Shown here: positions 783 through 48,144 of the stretch, piece after piece
How positions within the stretch are numbered: position 1 is the first letter of the stretch
Layout: each line of letters opens with the position of its first letter
DNA from: an uncultured Bacteroidota bacterium
GTDB lineage: Bacteria > Bacteroidota > Bacteroidia > Flavobacteriales > Flavobacteriaceae
Assembly: GCA_937136025.1 (NCBI GenBank)
Contig: CAKZOC010000121.1
Coordinates: 45,121 to 109,120 of the forward strand
Direction: 5' to 3'
DNA length: 64,000 nucleotides
Made by a program: the position numbers and the translations under genes
The notes under the pieces: model-generated
Seen by the model: the letters and a program-made list of their open reading frames with translations, nothing else
Database searches by the model: none
Told to the model about the DNA's origin: nothing

Positions 783-2696
783 TTACTTGCTGATGTAAAT
801 ATAGGCGCCCGGGGCTTCTAGTGTCAAATGATCGGACCAAATTACCGTTTCCCCGCTGAGCAGTTCCTGAACGGATTTTCCATGTAAACCGAGTTCCCGG
901 AAACGCTCCAGGGCAAATTTCACCGGAGCTTCATTTTTATTGAGCAGCAGCACTACGGTTTCTTCTTCAGCGGAGCGTACCAGAACATATACGCCATCCT
1001 CCGGCACAAAATGCAGGGTTTTTCCATTTTTCAGAGCCCGACTTTCCTTGCGAAAGTTAAGTATTGTTTTAAGATAGTCCTGCATCTCCCGAGCCTCGGG
1101 TGTCAGTCCGGCGCCGGTAAAGCCATTCTTTGAATCCGCCTCCCATCCCCCCGGAAAATCGGAGCGAATCCGTCCGTGATCTCCCGGTTTGGCGCTATTG
1201 TCCATCAGGATTTCAGTGCCATAGTAGACCTGCGGAATACGGGGTGCCACGAGGATAAAGGCCATGGCCATCCGGGTTAAAACAGCAGACCCGCCCAGTT
1301 GGGTGAATATCCGATCCATATCGTGATTGTCTCCAAAGAGCAGCAGATCGTGGGGACGGGTATAGTGAAAATCATTGGCCAGCGCTTCGTAGATCTCGAC
1401 AAGGCCACTTCCCCATGTTTCAGGTCCGGTTAGGCCTTCGACAACCGCCTTTTGCAAGGGAAAATCCATGGTAGTCCTCAGGTAGGAGCGATAGCTGTTG
1501 CCCTTCTGTACCCCGTCCTGCCAGTAACCCACCAGCAAGGGATTGGTGCTCCACTCTTCCCCGACGATATTGAAGTTCGGGTATTCTTCCATCAGTGCCC
1601 GGGCCCACCGACTCAAAAAATCCTTATCGGGATATGGGTACGTATCCTGGCGAATGCCTCCGAGCTGCAATGTTTCCACCCACCAAATGCTGTTTTGAAT
1701 CAGATAGGTCGCCATAAAGGGATTGTCCTGATTCAGGTCGGGCATGGACGGGACAAACCACCCTTTCTCCATGAGATCCCGATCTGTTTGGGCCGCATAA
1801 AGATCCTGATTTACGGTCCGCCGATGGTTGGTCACTGTTAGGGGGTCACCCTTTTCGTGATTCTGCTGAAAATTGATCCAGTCCGGAAAAGGTAAATCCT
1901 GCATCCACCAATGGTACAGGCCACAGTGATTGACCACCTGATCCATAATAAGCTTCAGGCCTTTCAGCCGTGCCTCATCGCTGAGGGTACGGTACTCCTG
2001 CAGGGTTCCAAATCTGGGATCTACCTGGTAAAAATCAGTTATGGCATAGCCGTGATACGAAGTCGCGGGCATATCGTTCAGCAGCAGGGGTGTCGGCCAG
2101 ATCGCTGTAAAACCCATATCCTGAATATAATCCAGGTGTCGGCGAATACCCTCCAGATCACCTCCGTGTCGCGCGTAGTCCTCAGACCGGTCCACTCCCT
2201 GCTCCCTCAGACCTGCAAAACTGTCATTTTCAGGGTTGGCGTTGGCAAAGCGGTCCGGGGTAATAAGGTAAATGACATCTGAGGCATCAAAACCTTCAAA
2301 GTCTTCCCCTTGCCTTTCCCGGGCCCTGATCGGATATGTAATCTCCCTGTCCGGGTAGCCCTTTCGTTTCAAAACAAGGTTCACTGCGCCGGGCCGGAGC
2401 TCCGAATCTAAAACAAGATCTATAAATAAATAATTTGGGCTGGAACCCGGATGCCAGGCCTCTACAAGGACCCCATCTGCAGAAACCCTTGGGGTGTAAA
2501 GTGCCATACCTTCTCCGTGAAGCATCAATTGGAGCCTGGAATTTCGCATACCCGCCCACCAGTTCGGAGGTTCTACCCGGATTGCAGTATCCTGTGCCCT
2601 GAGATCCTGCACAGTCCCCAAACCTATGATTCCCAAAAGAAAAAGGAATATCCGAATACCGGCATCATACCTGGAATTAACCCGCGTTGGACACAT
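783..2696 (-). CDS. GH13 cyclomaltodextrinase/neopullulanase (SusA-like)
   Basis: N-terminal EPPNWWAGM domain, YHGY, DQVVNH, catalytic IRQDTYPY / GEEW / NHDMDR motifs and a signal peptide. The start is uncertain (the ORF extends to 2735). Confidence 0.9.
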   Translation of the reverse strand: MCPTRVNSRYDAGIRIFLFLLGIIGLGTVQDLRAQDTAIRVEPPNWWAGMRNSRLQLMLHGEGMALYTPRVSADGVLVEAWHPGSSPNYLFIDLVLDSELRPGAVNLVLKRKGYPDREITYPIRARERQGEDFEGFDASDVIYLITPDRFANANPENDSFAGLREQGVDRSEDYARHGGDLEGIRRHLDYIQDMGFTAIWPTPLLLNDMPATSYHGYAITDFYQVDPRFGTLQEYRTLSDEARLKGLKLIMDQVVNHCGLYHWWMQDLPFPDWINFQQNHEKGDPLTVTNHRRTVNQDLYAAQTDRDLMEKGWFVPSMPDLNQDNPFMATYLIQNSIWWVETLQLGGIRQDTYPYPDKDFLSRWARALMEEYPNFNIVGEEWSTNPLLVGYWQDGVQKGNSYRSYLRTTMDFPLQKAVVEGLTGPETWGSGLVEIYEALANDFHYTRPHDLLLFGDNHDMDRIFTQLGGSAVLTRMAMAFILVAPRIPQVYYGTEILMDNSAKPGDHGRIRSDFPGGWEADSKNGFTGAGLTPEAREMQDYLKTILNFRKESRALKNGKTLHFVPEDGVYVLVRSAEEETVVLLLNKNEAPVKFALERFRELGLHGKSVQELLSGETVIWSDHLTLEAPGAYIYISK

Positions 2697-4995
2697 GCAC
2701 CGTTTTTTGTGGTTCCAAAACCACGCGCTGCTCATTCACACGAATGGACATTTCTTCTTTGGAATCCAGATAAAACCGACTCCCCTCAGAGGATACTTCG
2801 ACTTTGAGGATGCGATGTCTGAAATTGATTTTAAAGGAATACGACTTCCACTGTTTCGGAATTCTCGGGAAAAACGAAAGCTTATCGTCAATCACGCGCA
2901 TACCCCCAAATCCTTCGACGATACTCATCCAGGTTCCCGCCATGGAAGTAATGTGCAAGCCTTCCTCTACTTCCCGGTTATAATCGTCCAGATCCAGGCG
3001 CGAGGTTCTCAGGTAAAAGGCGTAGGCCTGCTCCAGCCGGTTCAGTTTGGAAGCCTGAATACTGTGTACGCAGGGAGAAAGAGAGGATTCATGCACCGTA
3101 AAGGGTTCATAAAAGTCAAAATGACGTTCGAGTTCTTCAGTGGTGAAATGGTCTTCAAAGAAATAAAATCCCTGAAGCGTATCCGCCTGCTTAATGTAGG
3201 GCGATCTGAGGATGCGATCCCAGCTCCACTTCTGATTCAACGGGCGTTCCGAGCGGTCCAGGTCCGCAGCAGGAATCAATTCCTTATCCAGAAAACCATC
3301 TTGCTGCAGGTAAACTTCGTGCTGGTCAGAGTAGGGAAAATACATGCCGTCAGCCACTTTCGCCCACTGGCGGGTCTCCTGTTCCGTTAACCGCGTATGT
3401 CCGATAATGCGCTGGTAATCCTCAGGATACCCATCTTTCACCTTCCGGAGTTGTTCCAGACAATAACGGATACACCACCGGGCCGAATAATTGGTGTACC
3501 AATTGTTGCTGACATTATTTTCATACTCATTCGGGCCGGTGACACCCAGAATGACATATTTCTCTTTCTGTTTTGAAAACGTGGCACGCTGATGCCAGAA
3601 TCGGGCGATTCCTATAAGCACTTCCAGCCCCATTTCAGGGATGTATGAATAATCCCCGGTATAGCGGTAATAATTATATATGGCAAACGCAATGGCCCCG
3701 TTGCGATGGATTTCCTCAAAGGTGATCTCCCATTCATTATGGCACTCCTCCCCATTCATGGTAACCATGGGGTACAGGGCCGCTCCATTACTAAATCCGA
3801 GTTTCCCCGCATTCTCAATAGCCTTCTCCAAATGATTGAACCGGTATTCCAGCAAGTTTCGCGCCACGTGCTGGTCTTTTGTTGCCATGTAGAAAGGAAT
3901 ACAATACGCCTCCGTATCCCAATACGTACTCCCTCCATATTTTTCCCCGGTAAACCCTTTAGGCCCGATATTCAGTCGTGAATCTCTTCCGGTATAAGTC
4001 TGGTTCAGATGCAGGATATTAAACCGGATGCCCTGTTGTGCCTTTATATCTCCTTCGATCGTTATGTCGCTCATCTCCCAAATCTCCTTCCAGGCCCCCC
4101 GTTGTGCCTCCAACAATGCCTCAAAGCCCGAAGCCACAGCGGTATCCAGAACTGCAGCCGCCGCCCGGGCCAAATCTTTGGCAGGATGATTCAGGTCTAC
4201 CGTATAACCCCCGTACTTCTCTACGGATAGTATTTTTCCTTTTGGTAGTGTTACTTCGTAGGAATGGCCTGCATAGGTTTCCTTTTCCAGATGTTCGGGG
4301 GCGCTTTCCACAGCCTTCCCATCGAGGGTGAGGCGGGCCTGCATAAAAGTGCAGGTATGAAAACGCGTCTTAAGGGTATGGGCCTCAATAAAAGCCCTGT
4401 TCCCCTCGGACCAGACTTTTGTGGTCTTCCAGAATGGATCGTCCCAATTGGTATCCTCATTGGTGATCCCGCTATCCAGATAAGGTGTTATCTTAACGGG
4501 CACATTGTCCTGATCCACAGTGAGATTATACCGGATGGCTCCGAGTTCATCGTGTTCCATACTCATAAACCGGGTCGCTTCGACCACGACGCCGATTCCA
4601 TTCTCCAAAGTTGCTTTAAAGGAACGGCTGTACCAGCCTTCCTTCATATTGAATTCGCGCCTGAACTGGGTCACCTTTTTACAACGGTTCAAATCCAGGA
4701 TTTCGCCCTTGATTTCCACGTGAATGCCAATCCAGTTCGGAGCGTTAAGGACTTTGGCAAAATACTCGGGGTATCCGTTTTTCCACCAACCCACGCGGGT
4801 CTTGTCGGGATAATATACCCCACCGATATAACTTCCCTGAAAAGTAGGTCCGCTGTAGTCCTCTTCGAAATTTGCGCGCTGACCCATAGCGCCATTACCC
4901 AGGCTGAAAAGACTTTCTGAGGCTTTAACATGAGAAGGCGTGTACCCTTCCTCAATAATCGACCACGGATCCGGTTTTATATAATCCTGATTCAT
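2677..4995 (-). CDS. GH65 maltose phosphorylase
   Basis: SLGNGAMGQRANFEE, GPKGFTGEKYGGSTYWDTE, catalytic GVTGPNEYEN, KQAD and HESSLSP motifs; next to beta-phosphoglucomutase. Confidence 0.93.
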   Translation of the reverse strand: MNQDYIKPDPWSIIEEGYTPSHVKASESLFSLGNGAMGQRANFEEDYSGPTFQGSYIGGVYYPDKTRVGWWKNGYPEYFAKVLNAPNWIGIHVEIKGEILDLNRCKKVTQFRREFNMKEGWYSRSFKATLENGIGVVVEATRFMSMEHDELGAIRYNLTVDQDNVPVKITPYLDSGITNEDTNWDDPFWKTTKVWSEGNRAFIEAHTLKTRFHTCTFMQARLTLDGKAVESAPEHLEKETYAGHSYEVTLPKGKILSVEKYGGYTVDLNHPAKDLARAAAAVLDTAVASGFEALLEAQRGAWKEIWEMSDITIEGDIKAQQGIRFNILHLNQTYTGRDSRLNIGPKGFTGEKYGGSTYWDTEAYCIPFYMATKDQHVARNLLEYRFNHLEKAIENAGKLGFSNGAALYPMVTMNGEECHNEWEITFEEIHRNGAIAFAIYNYYRYTGDYSYIPEMGLEVLIGIARFWHQRATFSKQKEKYVILGVTGPNEYENNVSNNWYTNYSARWCIRYCLEQLRKVKDGYPEDYQRIIGHTRLTEQETRQWAKVADGMYFPYSDQHEVYLQQDGFLDKELIPAADLDRSERPLNQKWSWDRILRSPYIKQADTLQGFYFFEDHFTTEELERHFDFYEPFTVHESSLSPCVHSIQASKLNRLEQAYAFYLRTSRLDLDDYNREVEEGLHITSMAGTWMSIVEGFGGMRVIDDKLSFFPRIPKQWKSYSFKINFRHRILKVEVSSEGSRFYLDSKEEMSIRVNEQRVVLEPQKTVHVSNAG

Positions 4996-5006
4996 TCTCC
5001 TTCTGT

Positions 5007-5675
5007 TTATTTATGTGGTTTACTTTCCAGGCGCAGTATTTCTTCCAGAAAAGAAGGCTGCATTTCTGTAAAATCCATGAAAACGGCATCGGCCTCCGAG
5101 AGTACTTCTGCCGCACCGATCCCAAGACTGTACATCCCCGCGGTATTGGCTGCGGCGATACCTGCCTGCGCATCCTCAATAACCACGCAATCCTCCGGGG
5201 GCAGGTGCAGGCGGGATGCGGCAATCAAAAATACTTCCGGGTCGGGTTTGGCTTTCACAACCTGAGTCCCGTCTACCACGGTGCTGAAATAGTCAGTCAG
5301 GCCGACTTTCTCCAATATAGGGACCGCGTTTTTGCTGGCAGAACCAAGGGCCATGGGCACGTTTCGCTCTTTTAAAAAATCAAGTACTCTGGAAACATCC
5401 GGCAAAATCTCAGAGGCGTCCATAGTCGCTATATAATTAAGGTAATCGGCATTCTTTTCCTCCAGCCAACTTGCGAATTGTTCCTCTGAGACTTGTAAGT
5501 CCCCCATCTCAAGGAGGAGTTCCAGGCAGCGTTTGCGGCTCACCCCTTTGAACTTTTCATTGTCCTCAATGGTGAATGGGATACCCAGATGATCGGCGAG
5601 TTGTTTCCAGGCGAGATAATGGTACTTGGCCGTATCGACGATGACCCCGTCCAGGTCAAAAATGAAGCCCTTCAT
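5007..5675 (-). CDS. pgmB: beta-phosphoglucomutase (HAD)
   Basis: FDLDGVIVDTAKYHY, GVSR, SASKNA, KPDPEVF and EDAQAG motifs. Confidence 0.95.
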   Translation of the reverse strand: MKGFIFDLDGVIVDTAKYHYLAWKQLADHLGIPFTIEDNEKFKGVSRKRCLELLLEMGDLQVSEEQFASWLEEKNADYLNYIATMDASEILPDVSRVLDFLKERNVPMALGSASKNAVPILEKVGLTDYFSTVVDGTQVVKAKPDPEVFLIAASRLHLPPEDCVVIEDAQAGIAAANTAGMYSLGIGAAEVLSEADAVFMDFTEMQPSFLEEILRLESKPHK

Positions 5676-44327: not shown

Positions 44328-45392
44328 TCAGGAGACGGGGGCTTCCTCAGCCTTTTCAAGGGTAAATGAGAATTCAGACCCCACACCCACCACACTTTCG
44401 ACATAGATTTTCTCGTTATGCGCCTCGATGATATGCTTGACAATAGCCAGTCCGAGACCGGATCCTCCTTCCCGCCGACTGCCGCTTTGGTCTATTCGGT
44501 AAAAGCGCTCAAAGAGCCGGGTGAGGTGCTGTTCTTCTATCCCTTCCCCATTATCCGTAACCCGTACGATAACCTTGTTTTTAATGAGATTTTCCACACT
44601 GACTTCTGTGGTACCGTCTTCGTGTCCGTACTTAATGGAGTTAACCAATAGATTAGTCAGTACCTGTTGAATCCTTTCCATATCCCCTTTGACGTAAATC
44701 GGGGTATCGTACTCCATATCGAAGACCAGTGAAATTCGTTTTTTCGAGGCCTTCATCTCCAGCAGGTCAAATACATTTTGGATAAGTTCGATGATATCAA
44801 AACGCTCGATTTCCAGATGCAGTTCCCCGATTTCCAGCTTTGAAATCAGATCGAGATCCTTAATGATATAGATGAGCCGTTCCACCCCCTTGGCGGCGCG
44901 TTGCAGGTATTTTTTACGAACTTTCTTATCCTCTAAAGCCCCGTCGAGGAGCGTATGAATATAGCCCTGGACGGTAAACAGAGGCGTCTTGAGTTCATGA
45001 GACACATTGCCCAAAAATTCCTTCCGGTACTCCTCCCGAATTTTCAGCGTATCGATTTCAATCTTCTTGTCCTTGGCAAATTTCTCAATTTCCGAGGTTA
45101 GGGTCTTCATATCCGTGGTTATCGGACCTGACGTAAAGGAAGTGGACTCCAGAAGGGACACGTCGTCGTAAATCTGTTTGATGCGCCTGTAAATAAACTT
45201 TTCAACGCGTTTTTGAAGAATGGCAAAGCAAATAATAAAACATACCAGGACAAAGCCTAAGTACCACGGCCAGTACGGCTGGAGCAAATCCTGTAAATAC
45301 AGGAATACAAAACCAACTGTAGCGAGAGCTAAAGTGATATAGAGGGATGACCTGAAGGCAAATCTGTAGGATTTACGGAGTTGTATGGCCAT
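44328..45392 (-). CDS. Sensor histidine kinase (PhoR-like)
   Basis: 2 TM segments; H-box NVSHELKTPL; N, G1, F and G2 boxes (NLLVNSIKY, DNGEG, LFERFYR, GSGLGL). Confidence 0.92.
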   Translation of the reverse strand: MAIQLRKSYRFAFRSSLYITLALATVGFVFLYLQDLLQPYWPWYLGFVLVCFIICFAILQKRVEKFIYRRIKQIYDDVSLLESTSFTSGPITTDMKTLTSEIEKFAKDKKIEIDTLKIREEYRKEFLGNVSHELKTPLFTVQGYIHTLLDGALEDKKVRKKYLQRAAKGVERLIYIIKDLDLISKLEIGELHLEIERFDIIELIQNVFDLLEMKASKKRISLVFDMEYDTPIYVKGDMERIQQVLTNLLVNSIKYGHEDGTTEVSVENLIKNKVIVRVTDNGEGIEEQHLTRLFERFYRIDQSGSRREGGSGLGLAIVKHIIEAHNEKIYVESVVGVGSEFSFTLEKAEEAPVS

Positions 45393-46078
45393 TATTGTAC
45401 ATACTTATACCCCACCCCTTTTACGGTCTTAAAATGAGATTCGCCGATCTTCTCCCTTAATTTCCGAATATGGACGTCGATGGTTCTTCCCCCTACAACC
45501 ACTTCCTGACCCCAGACTTTATCGAGGATGACCTCGCGTTTAAAAACCTTATCCGGCCTGGAGGCCAATAAGGCGAGGAGTTCAAACTCCTTCCGGGGCA
45601 AAATCATATCCTGCCCGTCTTTGACTACTTTATACTCCTCCCGGTTAATGACCAGATCTCCAACTTTCAGCACTTCGGTCGAATCTTCTTCATCCTTTTT
45701 CAACCTTCTTAACAGGGATTTCACCTTACTGAGAAAGACTTTTGGTTTAATGGGCTTTGTGATATAGTCATCTGCCCCCGCATCAAAGCCTGCGACCTGG
45801 GAGTAATCCTCGCTTCTGGCGGTGAGAAAAGTGATGATCGTATCTTCGAGCCCCTTGGATTTACGAATGAGTTCACAGGCCTCAATGCCATCCATTTCAG
45901 GCATCATCACATCCAGGATGATCAGGTGGGGGGATTTTTTCCGGGCCTTTTCAACGCCCTCGGCACCATTCTTTGCCGTGTACACCTGGTATCCCTCAGC
46001 GGAGAGATTATAACTCAGGATTTCCAGGATATCGGGTTCGTCGTCGACCAGAAGAATTTTGATGTCCTGCTTTTTCAT
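45392..46078 (-). CDS. OmpR/PhoB-family response regulator
   Basis: LVDDE, LDVMMP and KP receiver motifs; winged-helix RKEFELL...RTIDVHIRKLREK...TVKGVGYK. Confidence 0.95.
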   Translation of the reverse strand: MKKQDIKILLVDDEPDILEILSYNLSAEGYQVYTAKNGAEGVEKARKKSPHLIILDVMMPEMDGIEACELIRKSKGLEDTIITFLTARSEDYSQVAGFDAGADDYITKPIKPKVFLSKVKSLLRRLKKDEEDSTEVLKVGDLVINREEYKVVKDGQDMILPRKEFELLALLASRPDKVFKREVILDKVWGQEVVVGGRTIDVHIRKLREKIGESHFKTVKGVGYKYVQ

Positions 46079-46276: not shown

Positions 46277-46284
46277 TATATTTG
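46277..46284 (+). promoter_or_regulatory. -7 promoter element (TATATTTG) for the first CTD-only gene
   Basis: TAnnTTTG match 25 bp upstream of ATG 46310. Confidence 0.65.
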
Positions 46285-46309
46285 CTCAACGCTGCGGATC
46301 AATTATTGT

Positions 46310-46618
46310 ATGAAGCACTTATACCTCCTGATTTTACTATTTACCATGGGTACGGCGTTCGGTCAGCAAGCCCCGAACCAGGCGGATATTGAGGGGTTTA
46401 AAATATATCCGAATCCCGTTACTTCCGGGACTGTTTATATCGTAACAGCGGCGAACAAGCCCAAAAGAATTCGCATTTTCGACGTCCTGGGAACCCCTGT
46501 GCTGGAAACCACAATCATGGGAAAGGAACTCAACCTTTCGGGAATTAAAGCAGGCGTTTACCTGATTCAGGTCTATGAAAACGACAAAGTAGCTACCCGT
46601 AAACTGATCGTTAAATAA
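46310..46618 (+). CDS. T9SS type A sorting domain (CTD)-only protein 1
   Basis: Signal peptide AFG|QQ, then IYPNPV...IFDVLG...GVYLIQV...TRKLIVK; 102 aa. Confidence 0.85.
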   Translation: MKHLYLLILLFTMGTAFGQQAPNQADIEGFKIYPNPVTSGTVYIVTAANKPKRIRIFDVLGTPVLETTIMGKELNLSGIKAGVYLIQVYENDKVATRKLIVK

Positions 46619-46781
46619 CCCTCTTTTTCGGATAAACAGCATCGATGATCTGCGTGTTTTATCGATGAAATGCAAAGCGCTTCAAATTCACCTACAAATA
46701 TTGAAGATTCGCAACATTAAATTCTAAGAAGTTCAGGCTTGAATTATCTTCCTTGTATTGATCCCAAATCAATTACCATAG

Positions 46782-47096
46782 ATGAAGCAACTTCTACTGC
46801 TGCTTTTCTTACTGAGTACCTATGTCGTTTCAGCCCAACAGGATCCACGGAGTCCTGACCGGGCCGAAGCCCATTTTAGCTTGCATCCGAATCCGGTAAA
46901 AGATGGGTTCGTCTATGTGGAATCTGACCATGAGGGCCCTAAGGACATCCGTATCTACGATTTGTTCGGAAAAGTAGTCCTCGAGCAGCGGCTGGTTTCT
47001 CAAAAGCTATTTGTCAGCACCCTGGTTCCCGGGGTTTACATGGTACAAGTGCGTCAGGAGGAACGGATAGGAACGAAAAAACTCGTGATCCGCTAG
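46782..47096 (+). CDS. T9SS type A sorting domain (CTD)-only protein 2
   Basis: Signal peptide VSA|QQ, then LHPNPV...IYDLFG...PGVYMVQV...TKKLVIR; 104 aa. Confidence 0.85.
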   Translation: MKQLLLLLFLLSTYVVSAQQDPRSPDRAEAHFSLHPNPVKDGFVYVESDHEGPKDIRIYDLFGKVVLEQRLVSQKLFVSTLVPGVYMVQVRQEERIGTKKLVIR

Positions 47097-47149: not shown

Positions 47150-47157
47150 TATTTTTG
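47150..47157 (+). promoter_or_regulatory. -7 promoter element (TATTTTTG) for the LuxE-like gene
   Basis: TAnnTTTG match 15 bp upstream of ATG 47173. Confidence 0.55.
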
Positions 47158-47172
47158 CACGAATCTGTATGT

Positions 47173-48144
47173 ATGAATGCCGACCGCATTTTTGGGATAC
47201 AATCTGCAGGGGAATTTGAAGCCCTGGCCCTGGAAACGTTCGCGCTTCAATACCGCCATGTCTCCGTCTATAAGGAGTTTTGTGAACACCTGGGAAAGCA
47301 TCCTTCACAAGTTAAAGGCCTTCGCGAAATCCCCTTTTTACCCATCGATTTCTTTAAGTCGCATAAGGTTTTATCCGGCGAACTCCAGCCGGAAATCGTT
47401 TTTCGAAGCAGTGGTACTACAGGAAGTATCCGAAGTCAACATTACGTAGCCGACCTCGGCCTCTACCGAGAGAGTTTTACACGGGGTTTTGAACATTTTT
47501 ACGGGAAGCCGTCTGATTATTGTATCGTCGCCCTCCTGCCTTCCTATCAGGAACGATCGGATGCCTCATTGAGTTATATGGTCGGGGAACTTATCGCCCA
47601 AAGCACCCATCCGGAAAGCGGGTTTTACAATCCCGGTGAGACGGGTGCACTTCTGGAGCGCCTGGCAGAATCCCAAACCAAACTCCTGTTAATCGGGGTT
47701 ACCTTTGCCCTTCTCGACCTGGTCGAAAAGCCCCTAAAGACGATTCCCAACGCTATTGTAATGGAAACCGGGGGGATGAAAGGCAGGCGAAAAGAAATGG
47801 TTCGGGCAGAACTGCATAGCATCCTCTCAAAGGGTTTTGGACTGCAAGAGATTCACTCCGAATACGGGATGACCGAACTGCTCTCCCAGGCCTATTCTTC
47901 GGGGCAGGGACTCTTCCGATGTCCCCCCTGGATGCAGGTTCGCATTCGGGATACGGAAGATCCATTGAGCCCCATGGAAACAGGACGAACCGGAGGAGTG
48001 GACATCATAGATCTGGCCAACCAGCACTCCTGTGCCTTTATCGCCACACAGGATCTCGGGAAGTCTTACGCCAATGGGACTTTTGAAATTTTGGGGCGTT
48101 TTGATCATTCGGACATCCGGGGTTGTAATCTCATGGCCCTCTAG
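47173..48144 (+). CDS. LuxE/PaaK-family acyl-protein synthetase-like (ANL superfamily)
   Basis: IPFLPIDFFKSH, P-loop FRSSGTTG, METGGMKG, SEYGMTELLSQAY, TQDLG and RGCN motifs. Confidence 0.85.
   Translation: MNADRIFGIQSAGEFEALALETFALQYRHVSVYKEFCEHLGKHPSQVKGLREIPFLPIDFFKSHKVLSGELQPEIVFRSSGTTGSIRSQHYVADLGLYRESFTRGFEHFYGKPSDYCIVALLPSYQERSDASLSYMVGELIAQSTHPESGFYNPGETGALLERLAESQTKLLLIGVTFALLDLVEKPLKTIPNAIVMETGGMKGRRKEMVRAELHSILSKGFGLQEIHSEYGMTELLSQAYSSGQGLFRCPPWMQVRIRDTEDPLSPMETGRTGGVDIIDLANQHSCAFIATQDLGKSYANGTFEILGRFDHSDIRGCNLMAL

What the first reader, a model, noticed from the sequence alone, without database searches (positions are those of the whole stretch)
46310..47096. Two tandem T9SS substrates that are almost nothing but signal peptide + CTD
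Seen: 102- and 104-aa proteins with an 18-aa signal peptide, a Gln-Gln N-terminus (pyroglutamate-prone), only about 11-13 residues (QQAPNQADIEG; QQDPRSPDRAEAH) and then a complete type A CTD. Known: the CTD is normally removed by the PorU sortase after export of a large passenger. Inference: either the CTD itself is the functional unit (decoy, PorV/translocon modulator or chaperone), or the T9SS exports or anchors tiny pyroglutamyl peptides. Intact signals, a dedicated promoter and retention of two divergent copies argue against gene remnants.
Basis: partly seen in the sequence, partly recalled or inferred. Interest (0 to 1): 0.62.

Follow-up and report, generated by a model that had tools for sequence, protein, structure and literature searches.

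The report
Conserved cargo-less T9SS sorting-domain proteins
Two neighbouring genes of a marine Robiginitalea bacterium encode small exported proteins that are only the "address tag" of the type IX secretion system with no cargo; the first belongs to a family conserved across Flavobacteriaceae, so the tag itself probably has a job that nobody has tested.

Summary
Window 46310-46618 (102 aa, CTD1) and 46782-47096 (104 aa, CTD2) each encode an 18-residue signal peptide, a short linker and a full-length type A T9SS C-terminal domain (CTD) (TIGR04183, 54.5 and 48.9 bits against a cut-off of 23). The AlphaFold2 models best match the NucA CTD bound in the SprA-PorV translocon.

They are not relics:
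- CTD1 relatives of 102-112 aa occur in at least 377 species genomes across Flavobacteriaceae.
- dN/dS is 0.07-0.08 in the CTD part and 0.32 in the CTD1 linker.
- A Bacteroidota -7 promoter motif sits at a fixed distance before CTD1 in 72 of 78 loci.
- CTD1 was the only gene in 20 kb recovered in all four metatranscriptomes laid on that stretch.

The selected unit is therefore the CTD fold, not a secreted peptide. The Gln N-terminus is the general Bacteroidota "Q-rule".

The probable F. johnsoniae orthologue, Fjoh_0547, is already noted in the literature. [quoted passage not shown]

The neighbouring two-component system is PhoBR-like and is linked by inherited gene order only.

My best mechanistic guess is a cargo-less CTD ligand or reporter of the T9SS, like the CTD of PorA. 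This is inferred, not shown.

The parts
46277..46284 (+). Bacteroidota-type -7 promoter element TATATTTG (TAnnTTTG), 33 nt before the CTD1 start codon
   Evidence: Read directly from the sequence. The motif lies at a fixed distance (33-36 nt, mode 35) in 68 of 78 related loci, and somewhere within 120 nt in 72 of 78, against 9 of 78 shuffled upstream regions. An RNA contig in run X19 starts at 46301.
46310..46618 (+). CTD1: a 102-aa cargo-less type A CTD protein. Signal peptide is residues 1-18 (46310-46363), variable linker 19-25 (46364-46384), CTD 26-102 (46385-46615), then the stop codon.
   Evidence: The family is conserved at 102-112 aa. dN/dS by region is. RNA contigs appear in runs X19, X22, X23, X25 and X26.
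46619..46781 (+). 163-nt spacer between CTD1 and CTD2, with no canonical promoter motif, terminator or conserved RNA structure
   Evidence: No terminator-like site in the spacer. No Rfam match. Folding energy is not unusual, z = -0.64. TAnnTTTG lies upstream of CTD2 in only 6 of 78 loci. Co-transcription with CTD1 is inferred, not shown.
46782..47096 (+). CTD2: a 104-aa cargo-less type A CTD protein, a faster-evolving paralogue. Signal peptide is residues 1-18 (46782-46835), linker 19-30 (46836-46871), CTD 31-104 (46872-47093), then the stop codon.
   Evidence: It is present at 104-110 aa after CTD1 in all 83 loci of the Robiginitalea-Maribacter-Flagellimonas-Cellulophaga group. dN/dS is 0.078. 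RNA contigs appear in X19 and X23.
47173..48144 (+). LuxE-family (PF04443) adenylate-forming enzyme gene with no signal peptide and its own TATTTTTG motif at 47150-47157. It is an invariant downstream neighbour but probably a separate transcription unit.
   Evidence: PF04443 at 51.9 bits. The only PDB relative is LuxE, 7xc6_E. It follows the CTD array in all 83 loci and in distant loci L088, L089, L091, L092 and L093. The promoter motif is present in 58 of 78 loci.
44328..46078 (-). Divergent two-component system: an OmpR/PhoB-type response regulator (45392-46078) and a PhoR-like histidine kinase (44328-45392) with two transmembrane helices joined by a loop of about 8 residues. This is context, probably not part of the unit.
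   Evidence: By gene order it is the positional orthologue of F. johnsoniae Fjoh_0543/0544 'PhoR/PhoB' (L093; L089; PMC8115612). It is absent next to the mini-CTD genes in Flagellimonas, Cellulophaga and Saonia.

Best explanation
Shown here: CTD1 and CTD2 are real, transcribed genes. Each encodes a 9-10 kDa basic protein made of a Sec signal peptide, a short unconstrained linker and one complete type A T9SS C-terminal-domain beta-sandwich, with no passenger. CTD1 belongs to an old family found across Flavobacteriaceae. CTD2 is a younger or faster-evolving paralogue. The part under selection is the CTD fold itself.

Inferred mechanism: after Sec export and pyroglutamyl capping, the free CTD acts as a cargo-less ligand of CTD-binding partners. 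These would be PorV and the SprA pore, which bind CTDs of this fold, and possibly a periplasmic sensor. It therefore reports on or modulates the T9SS instead of delivering anything. The precedent is the CTD of P. gingivalis PorA, which alone activates PorY. A constitutively and highly expressed minimal substrate would be kept low in the periplasm by export and would accumulate when the T9SS is saturated or blocked.

My confidence is about 0.9 for the descriptive part and about 0.3 for this specific mechanism. The single figure given is a compromise between the two.
For: Domain and fold. The best structural match is a CTD caught inside SprA-PorV, 8glk_D.

Conservation:
- 484 clusters, almost all 102-103 aa.
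- 377 species genomes.
- 112-aa members in Flavobacterium, Paenimyroides, Christiangramia, Zunongwangia, Salegentibacter and Xanthomarina.
- With no length filter, 72 of the best 150 representatives are 125 aa or shorter.

Selection:
- Whole-gene dN/dS is 0.085 for CTD1 and 0.078 for CTD2.
- The CTD part is 0.070 and 0.078, against 0.32 in the CTD1 linker and 0.14 in the CTD2 linker.
- The CTD part of CTD1 is a median 70% identical between genera. That is more than the neighbouring LuxE-like enzyme at 59%.
- There are 34 invariant columns, including family-specific polar residues D26, T38, T46, K52, D58, E73, N75, E90, T96, R97 and K98.

Expression:
- A promoter motif conserved in position.
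- CTD1 contigs at 98.5% identity or more in five metatranscriptome runs from three studies. It is the only gene of 40-60 kb seen in all four runs laid on that stretch.
- The probable orthologue Fjoh_0547 has 887-5107 normalised RNA counts in every condition (PMC8115612 Table S1).

Precedent:
- The C-terminal 69 residues of the PorA CTD, fused to Halo tag, bind PorY and PorV and restore T9SS gene expression. Basic residues and the last strand are required (PMC12152298).
- porA homologues exist only in Porphyromonas (PMC7712824), so other Bacteroidota have no known equivalent.
- Mature CTD1 is basic: 11 K+R against 7 D+E, pI 9.5.
Against: No binding, localisation or phenotype data exist for this family. 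Ordinary CTDs are recognised by the T9SS without such strong conservation, so the constraint shows that a specific partner exists but not which one. [quoted passage not shown] The adjacent histidine kinase has almost no periplasmic loop and is PhoR-like, so it cannot be a PorY-type receptor. Adjacency to it is lost in several genera. Fjoh_0547 orthology rests on size, domain and gene position, not on its sequence, which I could not fetch.
Confidence: 0.45

Rival explanations
1. A T9SS-independent small secreted beta-sandwich protein. The fold descends from a CTD, but the protein now has a function of its own, such as binding a surface or an environmental ligand. It reaches the medium or cell surface by another route, as stand-alone CTD-like proteins such as DUF3244 of Bacteroides may do.
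For: [quoted passage not shown] Foldseek also matches the roughly 100-aa stand-alone DUF3244 proteins BT_1867 and BT_3571 (4g5a, 3sd2; TM about 0.6). One family member carries a precomputed PF11589 (DUF3244) hit (P0337). Strong family-specific surface conservation exceeds what sorting alone needs.
Against: Both proteins score far above threshold on the type A CTD models over the full model length and keep all generic CTD motifs, including the C-terminal K-L-I/V-x-K. P0001 and P0002 do not match DUF3244 at E up to 0.1. Presence in mutant supernatants could come from leakage of an abundant periplasmic protein.
Confidence: 0.25
2. A minimal true cargo. The T9SS exports the protein, PorU removes the CTD, and the product is a 7-13 residue pyroglutamyl peptide that is released or attached to the surface glycolipid.
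For: The architecture is a complete substrate. The N-terminal Gln is conserved in at least 90% of sequences. The linker is polar.
Against: The linker is the least constrained part of CTD1 (dN/dS 0.32 against 0.07). It varies in sequence and in length, from about 7 residues to about 17 in the 112-aa members. The Gln is a phylum-wide rule for signal peptidase I substrates (PMC5837995). If the CTD were only a disposable tag, it would not be more conserved than a neighbouring enzyme.
Confidence: 0.08
3. A function tied to the neighbours: either a member of the phosphate-starvation (PhoBR) regulon, or a substrate or partner of the LuxE-like acyl-adenylate-forming enzyme that always follows the array.
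For: The block phoR-phoB | (TBDT, beta-helix lipoprotein) mini-CTD ... LuxE | tyrS is syntenic from Flavobacterium to Robiginitalea. No locus among about 90 separates the mini-CTD from LuxE. One X19 RNA contig (47049-47209) runs from the end of CTD2 into the start of the LuxE gene.
Against: In F. johnsoniae, Fjoh_0547 is not induced by low phosphate (log2FC -0.18), while the flanking Fjoh_0545, 0546 and 0549 rise 190- to 960-fold (log2FC 7.6-9.9). The next gene, Fjoh_0548, responds in the opposite direction under low nitrogen, -0.87 against +1.69. LuxE has its own promoter motif in 58 of 78 loci and no signal peptide, so it sits in a different compartment. Housekeeping trmB and tyrS are equally syntenic, so the linkage looks inherited, not functional.
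Confidence: 0.07
4. Truncation relics of former cargo genes, still carrying a signal peptide and CTD but on the way to loss.
For: In more distant Flavobacteriaceae the slot occupied by CTD2 holds CTD cargo genes of 253-552 aa.
Against: Intact ORFs of constant length occur in hundreds of species. dN/dS is about 0.08. The genes are expressed. CTD1 forms a clade with all distant mini-CTDs, and CTD2 forms its own clade, not nested in the long-cargo CTDs.
Confidence: 0.02

Closest known systems
Fjoh_0547 of Flavobacterium johnsoniae UW101 (112-aa CTD-containing protein mentioned in PMC7712824, citing Lauber et al. 2018)
   Same: It has the same size class and the same 'CTD and nothing else' description. 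It holds the same genomic position: after the PhoR/PhoB genes, a TonB-dependent transporter and a beta-helix lipoprotein, as in Flavobacterium hauense L093 and loci L084, L088, L091 and L092. The mRNA is abundant and constitutive, in line with the metatranscriptome signal here.
   Different: I could not retrieve the sequence, so orthology rests on position and size. F. johnsoniae appears to have a single mini-CTD at this site, whereas the window has a tandem pair. No function has been assigned to it.
PorA (PGN_0123) of Porphyromonas gingivalis, whose CTD is a ligand of the PorY sensor kinase (PMC7712824, PMC12152298)
   Same: It is a small type A CTD protein whose CTD, not its N-terminal domain, carries the activity. 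Its localisation is partly independent of the T9SS, and it binds PorV. Basic CTD residues are required, and mature CTD1 is basic.
   Different: PorA is 246 aa with a FimH-like N-terminal domain, and its homologues are restricted to Porphyromonas. CTD1 and CTD2 have no N-terminal domain. No link to a PorY-type kinase is shown here. The adjacent kinase is PhoR-like, with a periplasmic loop of about 8 residues.
Canonical type A CTDs of T9SS cargo (TIGR04183 / PF18962), for example the NucA, RemA/RemZ and FspA CTDs seen bound in SprA-PorV (PDB 8glk, 8gl6, 8gl8, 8glj)
   Same: They share sequence family, position at the extreme C-terminus, a seven-strand Ig-like sandwich and the generic motifs.
   Different: Canonical CTDs are appended to a passenger of tens to thousands of residues. 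Here there is none. The domain is as conserved as a housekeeping enzyme, which suggests constraints beyond recognition.
DUF3244 (PF11589) stand-alone beta-sandwich proteins of Bacteroides (PDB 4g5a, 3sd2)
   Same: They are secreted single-domain proteins of about 100 aa with a CTD-like fold (Foldseek TM 0.55-0.62). Their function is unknown.
   Different: CTD1 and CTD2 show no sequence match to DUF3244.

Membership tests
T9SS type A C-terminal sorting domain (TIGR04183 / PF18962) | Curated HMM score above threshold, covering the whole model | tested here: met
   TIGR04183 scores 54.5 and 48.9 bits against a cut-off of 23, model positions 1-72 and 2-72 of 72. PF18962 scores 46.7 and 43.8 bits against 27.
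T9SS type A C-terminal sorting domain (TIGR04183 / PF18962) | The domain lies at the extreme C-terminus of a protein that has an N-terminal Sec signal peptide | tested here: met
   The domain ends at the last residue. The N-termini MKHLYLLILLFTMGTAFG|Q and MKQLLLLLFLLSTYVVSA|Q have a basic start, a hydrophobic core, small residues at -3 and -1, and Gln at +1. They are modelled as a helix. No dedicated signal-peptide predictor was available.
T9SS type A C-terminal sorting domain (TIGR04183 / PF18962) | Ig-like seven-strand beta-sandwich fold | tested here: met
   AlphaFold2 mean pLDDT is 89 for both proteins, each with 7 strands. The best Foldseek hits are the CTDs of NucA, mirolase, PorZ and RemA.
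T9SS type A C-terminal sorting domain (TIGR04183 / PF18962) | Directs T9SS-dependent export and is removed by the PorU sortase | not testable with these tools
   This needs experiment. [quoted passage not shown]
Conventional T9SS cargo (passenger plus CTD) | A folded passenger domain lies between the signal peptide and the CTD | tested here: not met
   Only 7-13 residues lie between the cleavage site and the first CTD strand. This segment has low pLDDT and is the least conserved part of CTD1.
PorA-type CTD regulator of a T9SS two-component system | Sequence homology to PorA | not tested
The literature states that porA homologues are confined to Porphyromonas.
PorA-type CTD regulator of a T9SS two-component system | The CTD binds the periplasmic part of a sensor kinase and activates T9SS genes | not testable with these tools
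   The one kinase encoded nearby (44328-45392) has two transmembrane helices separated by about 8 residues and best matches PhoR/PnpS-type kinases. It is an unlikely receptor.
Pho regulon of Flavobacteriaceae | Induced by phosphate depletion | tested here: not met
   This was tested only through published F. johnsoniae RNA-seq for the positional orthologue. Fjoh_0547 has log2FC -0.18 (padj 0.57), while neighbours 0545, 0546 and 0549 have 8.0, 9.9 and 7.6 (PMC8115612).

The most novel reading that the evidence does not exclude
The CTD1 family is the Flavobacteriaceae counterpart of the PorA CTD: a cargo-less 'reporter substrate'. It would be made constitutively at a high level and cleared from the periplasm by the T9SS. 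When export stalls it would accumulate and bind a sensor (a PorY-type kinase or another envelope sensor), or else occupy PorV/SprA, and so tune T9SS synthesis or gating. CTD2 would be a lineage-specific second channel of the same device. This would make sorting domains with a signalling role a general feature of the phylum, not a Porphyromonas oddity.
Probability: 0.17. Interest if true: 0.75.

Novelty: new variant of a known kind. Interest (0 to 1): 0.5.

Why it matters
T9SS sorting domains are treated as disposable tags. This family shows a sorting domain kept alone, without cargo, across a whole bacterial family. It is under stronger constraint than a neighbouring enzyme and is well expressed. 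That points to a function in the domain itself. Only one such case is known, the PorA CTD acting on PorY in P. gingivalis, and its authors explicitly asked whether equivalents exist elsewhere. The probable orthologue Fjoh_0547 sits in the genetically tractable F. johnsoniae. The question can therefore be tested directly with one deletion, one tagged construct and existing T9SS mutants.

Tried and rejected
- Pho-regulon membership. This was suggested by the divergent PhoBR-like system and by the F. johnsoniae 'PhoBR operon' annotation. I rejected it for the positional orthologue using the published RNA-seq.
- The adjacent kinase as a PorY-like receptor. Rejected, because it has essentially no periplasmic loop, its best NCBIfam matches are PnpS/PhoR-type kinases although none reaches its family cut-off, and the adjacency is lost in Flagellimonas, Cellulophaga and Saonia.
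- An operon with LuxE. Weakened by LuxE's own promoter motif, by the opposite regulation of Fjoh_0547 and Fjoh_0548, and by the absence of LuxE transcripts where CTD1 and CTD2 are seen.
- CTD2 as a truncated copy of the 253-552 aa cargo found in the same slot elsewhere. The tree gives three separate clades and cannot polarise them, so this is neither shown nor excluded.
- A regulatory RNA or terminator in the 5' region or the spacer. There was no Rfam hit, no unusual folding and no terminator-like site in the intergenic regions.
- A locus search with the broad alignment A1 failed because it had no conserved stretch, so I used A2 instead.
- Lauber et al. 2018 (PMC6927815) is not held, so the Fjoh_0547 secretion datum is second-hand.
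I therefore could not count CTD-only genes in the window's own genome, look for its T9SS and PorX/PorY genes, or fetch Fjoh_0547.
- Literature searches for T9SS with LuxE, and for LuxE in Flavobacterium, found nothing relevant.
Full report
**Observation.**
Each matches the type A T9SS sorting domain over the full model. TIGR04183 gives 54.5 and 48.9 bits against a cut-off of 23. PF18962 gives E 4e-12 and 3e-11. The two are 36% identical paralogues (profile-profile E 2e-41).

AlphaFold2 models built on family alignments have mean pLDDT 89. They show a signal-peptide helix, a short low-confidence linker and a seven-strand sandwich. Foldseek's best PDB match for both is the NucA CTD trapped in the F. 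johnsoniae SprA-PorV translocon (8glk_D, TM 0.83-0.86, rmsd 1.6-1.7 A). Next come the CTDs of mirolase, PorZ, RemA and FspA. A profile of the family also finds the NucA and RemA CTDs by sequence. No other ORF in the window carries a CTD.

**Organism and distribution.**
Close homologues are annotated as Robiginitalea. CTD1 has 484 homologous clusters in the length-restricted search, almost all exactly 102-103 aa and 60-94% identical over 100% of the length. A pattern scan of one genome per species found 377 genomes with a relative. The best 80 are from Robiginitalea, Saonia, Muriicola, Flagellimonas/Allomuricauda, Maribacter, Cellulophaga, Spongiimicrobium, Aurantibacter and Algicola. More distant members of 107-112 aa (42-52% identical) occur in Flavobacterium, Paenimyroides, Christiangramia, Zunongwangia, Salegentibacter, Salinimicrobium and Xanthomarina. 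In a search with no length filter, 72 of the best 150 representatives are 125 aa or shorter. The cargo-less form is therefore the rule for this CTD lineage, not an accident. CTD2 is always 104 aa within Robiginitalea (47-98% identity) and 104-110 aa in the other genera of the first group.

**Selection.**
- Pairwise Nei-Gojobori estimates on codon alignments of 78 loci give a median dN/dS of 0.085 for CTD1, 0.078 for CTD2 and 0.115 for the neighbouring LuxE-like gene.
- Split by region, the CTD part has 0.070 (CTD1) and 0.078 (CTD2). The CTD1 linker has 0.32 and its signal peptide 0.19.
- The CTD part of CTD1 is a median 70% identical between the window and other genera. The figure is 59% for the LuxE-like enzyme and 45% for CTD2.
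- Thirty-four columns are invariant across twelve diverse CTD1 sequences. They include many polar residues that are not generic CTD motifs.
- The residues after the cleavage site vary in sequence and in number, from about 7 to about 17.

The constrained object is the CTD fold, not a peptide. The conserved Gln at +1 is the phylum-wide Q-rule for signal peptidase I substrates (PMC5837995, PMC10653852).

**Expression.**
A Bacteroidota -7 promoter motif (TAnnTTTG; that this is the consensus is my own knowledge) lies at 46277-46284, 33 nt before the CTD1 ATG. In 72 of 78 related loci the motif is present, nearly always 33-36 nt upstream, against 9 of 78 shuffled controls. It is rare before CTD2 (6 of 78) and common before the LuxE-like gene (58 of 78). 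I infer from this that CTD1 and CTD2 form one transcription unit and LuxE a separate one.

Assembled contigs from sediment metatranscriptomes of three studies match CTD1 at 98.5% identity or more in five runs (X19, X22, X23, X25, X26). They match CTD2 in two. Across 40-60 kb of the window, CTD1 is the only gene recovered in all four runs laid on that stretch. These are low-depth contigs and may include some DNA, so they show transcription but not its level.

**Genomic context.**
In all 83 loci of the first group the order is CTD1, CTD2, LuxE-like gene on one strand. In more distant genomes the first gene is always a mini-CTD and the last a LuxE-like gene. The slot between them varies:
- nothing (L091, L093);
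- one CTD cargo of 253-285 aa (L084, L092);
- two cargos of 266+489 or 549+296 aa (L088, L089).

A maximum-likelihood tree of the CTD parts gives three clades: CTD1 with all distant mini-CTDs, CTD2 alone, and the long-cargo CTDs. The origin of CTD2, whether by duplication of CTD1 or by loss of a passenger, is therefore unresolved.

The Flavobacterium hauense locus L093 shows the full ancestral block: LysE, TrmB, glycosyltransferase, HK, RR | TonB-dependent transporter, beta-helix lipoprotein, mini-CTD, LuxE ... | tyrS, epimerase, amidohydrolase. The window has the same flanks but lacks the transporter and lipoprotein.

This block corresponds to the F. johnsoniae region that Lidbury et al. call the PhoBR operon: Fjoh_0541 GT, 0543 PhoR, 0544 PhoB, 0545 TBDT and 0546 beta-helix lipoprotein (PMC8115612). 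It places Fjoh_0547, described elsewhere as a 112-residue CTD-containing protein (PMC7712824), at the mini-CTD position. I could not fetch its sequence, so orthology is inferred from position, size and domain.

**What the F. johnsoniae data say.**
In Table S1 of PMC8115612, Fjoh_0547 has 887-1787 normalised counts in replete medium, which is high for a 339-nt gene. It is not induced by low phosphate (log2FC -0.18, padj 0.57) or low iron, and it rises about threefold under low nitrogen (+1.69). Its neighbours 0545, 0546 and 0549 rise by log2FC 7.6-9.9 under low phosphate. The next gene, 0548, is weakly expressed and moves the other way under low nitrogen. So the mini-CTD gene is an independent, constitutively active unit. 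The links to PhoBR and to the downstream gene look like inherited gene order, which is also shared by the housekeeping genes trmB and tyrS.

The window's kinase has two transmembrane helices joined by about 8 residues, and its best matches are PhoR/PnpS models. That suits a PhoR and rules it out as a periplasmic receptor for a CTD.

**Mechanism.**
It is shown here that a cargo-less CTD is made, exported (by inference from the signal peptide) and kept under strong constraint. What it binds is inferred. CTDs of this fold sit in a pocket formed by PorV loops and SprA (PMC10994853), so PorV and SprA are the default partners.

The only demonstrated non-sorting role of a CTD is in P. gingivalis PorA. 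There the last 69 residues, fused to an unrelated tag, bind PorY and PorV and restore T9SS gene expression. This happens even in T9SS-defective cells, and it needs basic residues and the last strand (PMC12152298). PorA homologues are confined to Porphyromonas, and those authors anticipate functional equivalents elsewhere.

A CTD-only protein is the minimal form of such a ligand. Mature CTD1 is basic (pI 9.5). Like PorA, Fjoh_0547 reaches the outside without the translocon. I therefore favour a cargo-less ligand or reporter of the T9SS, at about 0.3 for this specific mechanism. The main rival is a T9SS-independent secreted beta-sandwich with its own ligand, supported by the sprA/porV supernatant datum and by the fold match to stand-alone DUF3244 proteins. 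A secreted pyroglutamyl peptide, a Pho- or LuxE-linked role and gene decay are each disfavoured by the data above.

**Novelty.**
Small CTD proteins have been noticed: Fjoh_0547, and reviews mention 'very small' effectors (PMC10202324). I found no description of this family, its conservation or any function. It is a variant of a known kind, type A CTD proteins, in which the tag stands alone.

**Limits.**
- The dN/dS values come from a simple counting method with partly saturated dS (median about 1.2).
- The expression evidence is from assembled contigs.

Noticed in passing
window 47173-48144 (+); L001-L083, L088, L089, L091-L093: A LuxE-family (PF04443) cytoplasmic adenylate-forming enzyme gene follows the mini-CTD array in every complete locus examined, about 90 in all, from Flavobacterium to Robiginitalea. 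It has its own TAnnTTTG motif. I found no literature on its role in Flavobacteriaceae.
   Followed up: partly
window 44328-46078 (-); L093 1828-3554; L089 2087-3807: The divergent two-component system is the positional orthologue of F. johnsoniae PhoR/PhoB (Fjoh_0543/0544). In Robiginitalea, Maribacter and Muriicola the TonB-dependent transporter and beta-helix lipoprotein that sit between phoB and the mini-CTD in Flavobacterium hauense (L093), and that are strongly low-phosphate-induced in F. johnsoniae (Fjoh_0545/0546), are missing from this site. In Cellulophaga (L002) and Paenimyroides (L092) that pair sits directly upstream of the mini-CTD.
   Followed up: partly
L089 4449-7092; L088 4424-6787; L084 4456-5217 vs L092 4481-5338: Cargo genes in the slot between the mini-CTD and LuxE have nearly identical CTDs within a locus (549-aa and 296-aa proteins of L089; 266-aa and 489-aa proteins of L088). 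Their CTDs are also very similar between genomes (L084 against L092), while the passengers look unrelated. This suggests CTD homogenisation or passenger-cassette exchange at this site.
   Followed up: no
L001/L025 (Maribacter halichondriae Hal144) about 2275-4750 of L001: TrmB, the histidine kinase and the response regulator each align to the window's proteins in two pieces in different frames, while both mini-CTD genes are intact. These are either three pseudogenes or assembly frameshifts.
   Followed up: no
window 46782-47096 and Robiginitalea loci L008, L021: CTD2 evolves markedly faster in Robiginitalea than elsewhere: the tree has a stem branch of about 1.0 substitutions per site and long terminal branches. 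It still has low dN/dS in pooled estimates. This may reflect a change of partner in this genus.
   Followed up: no
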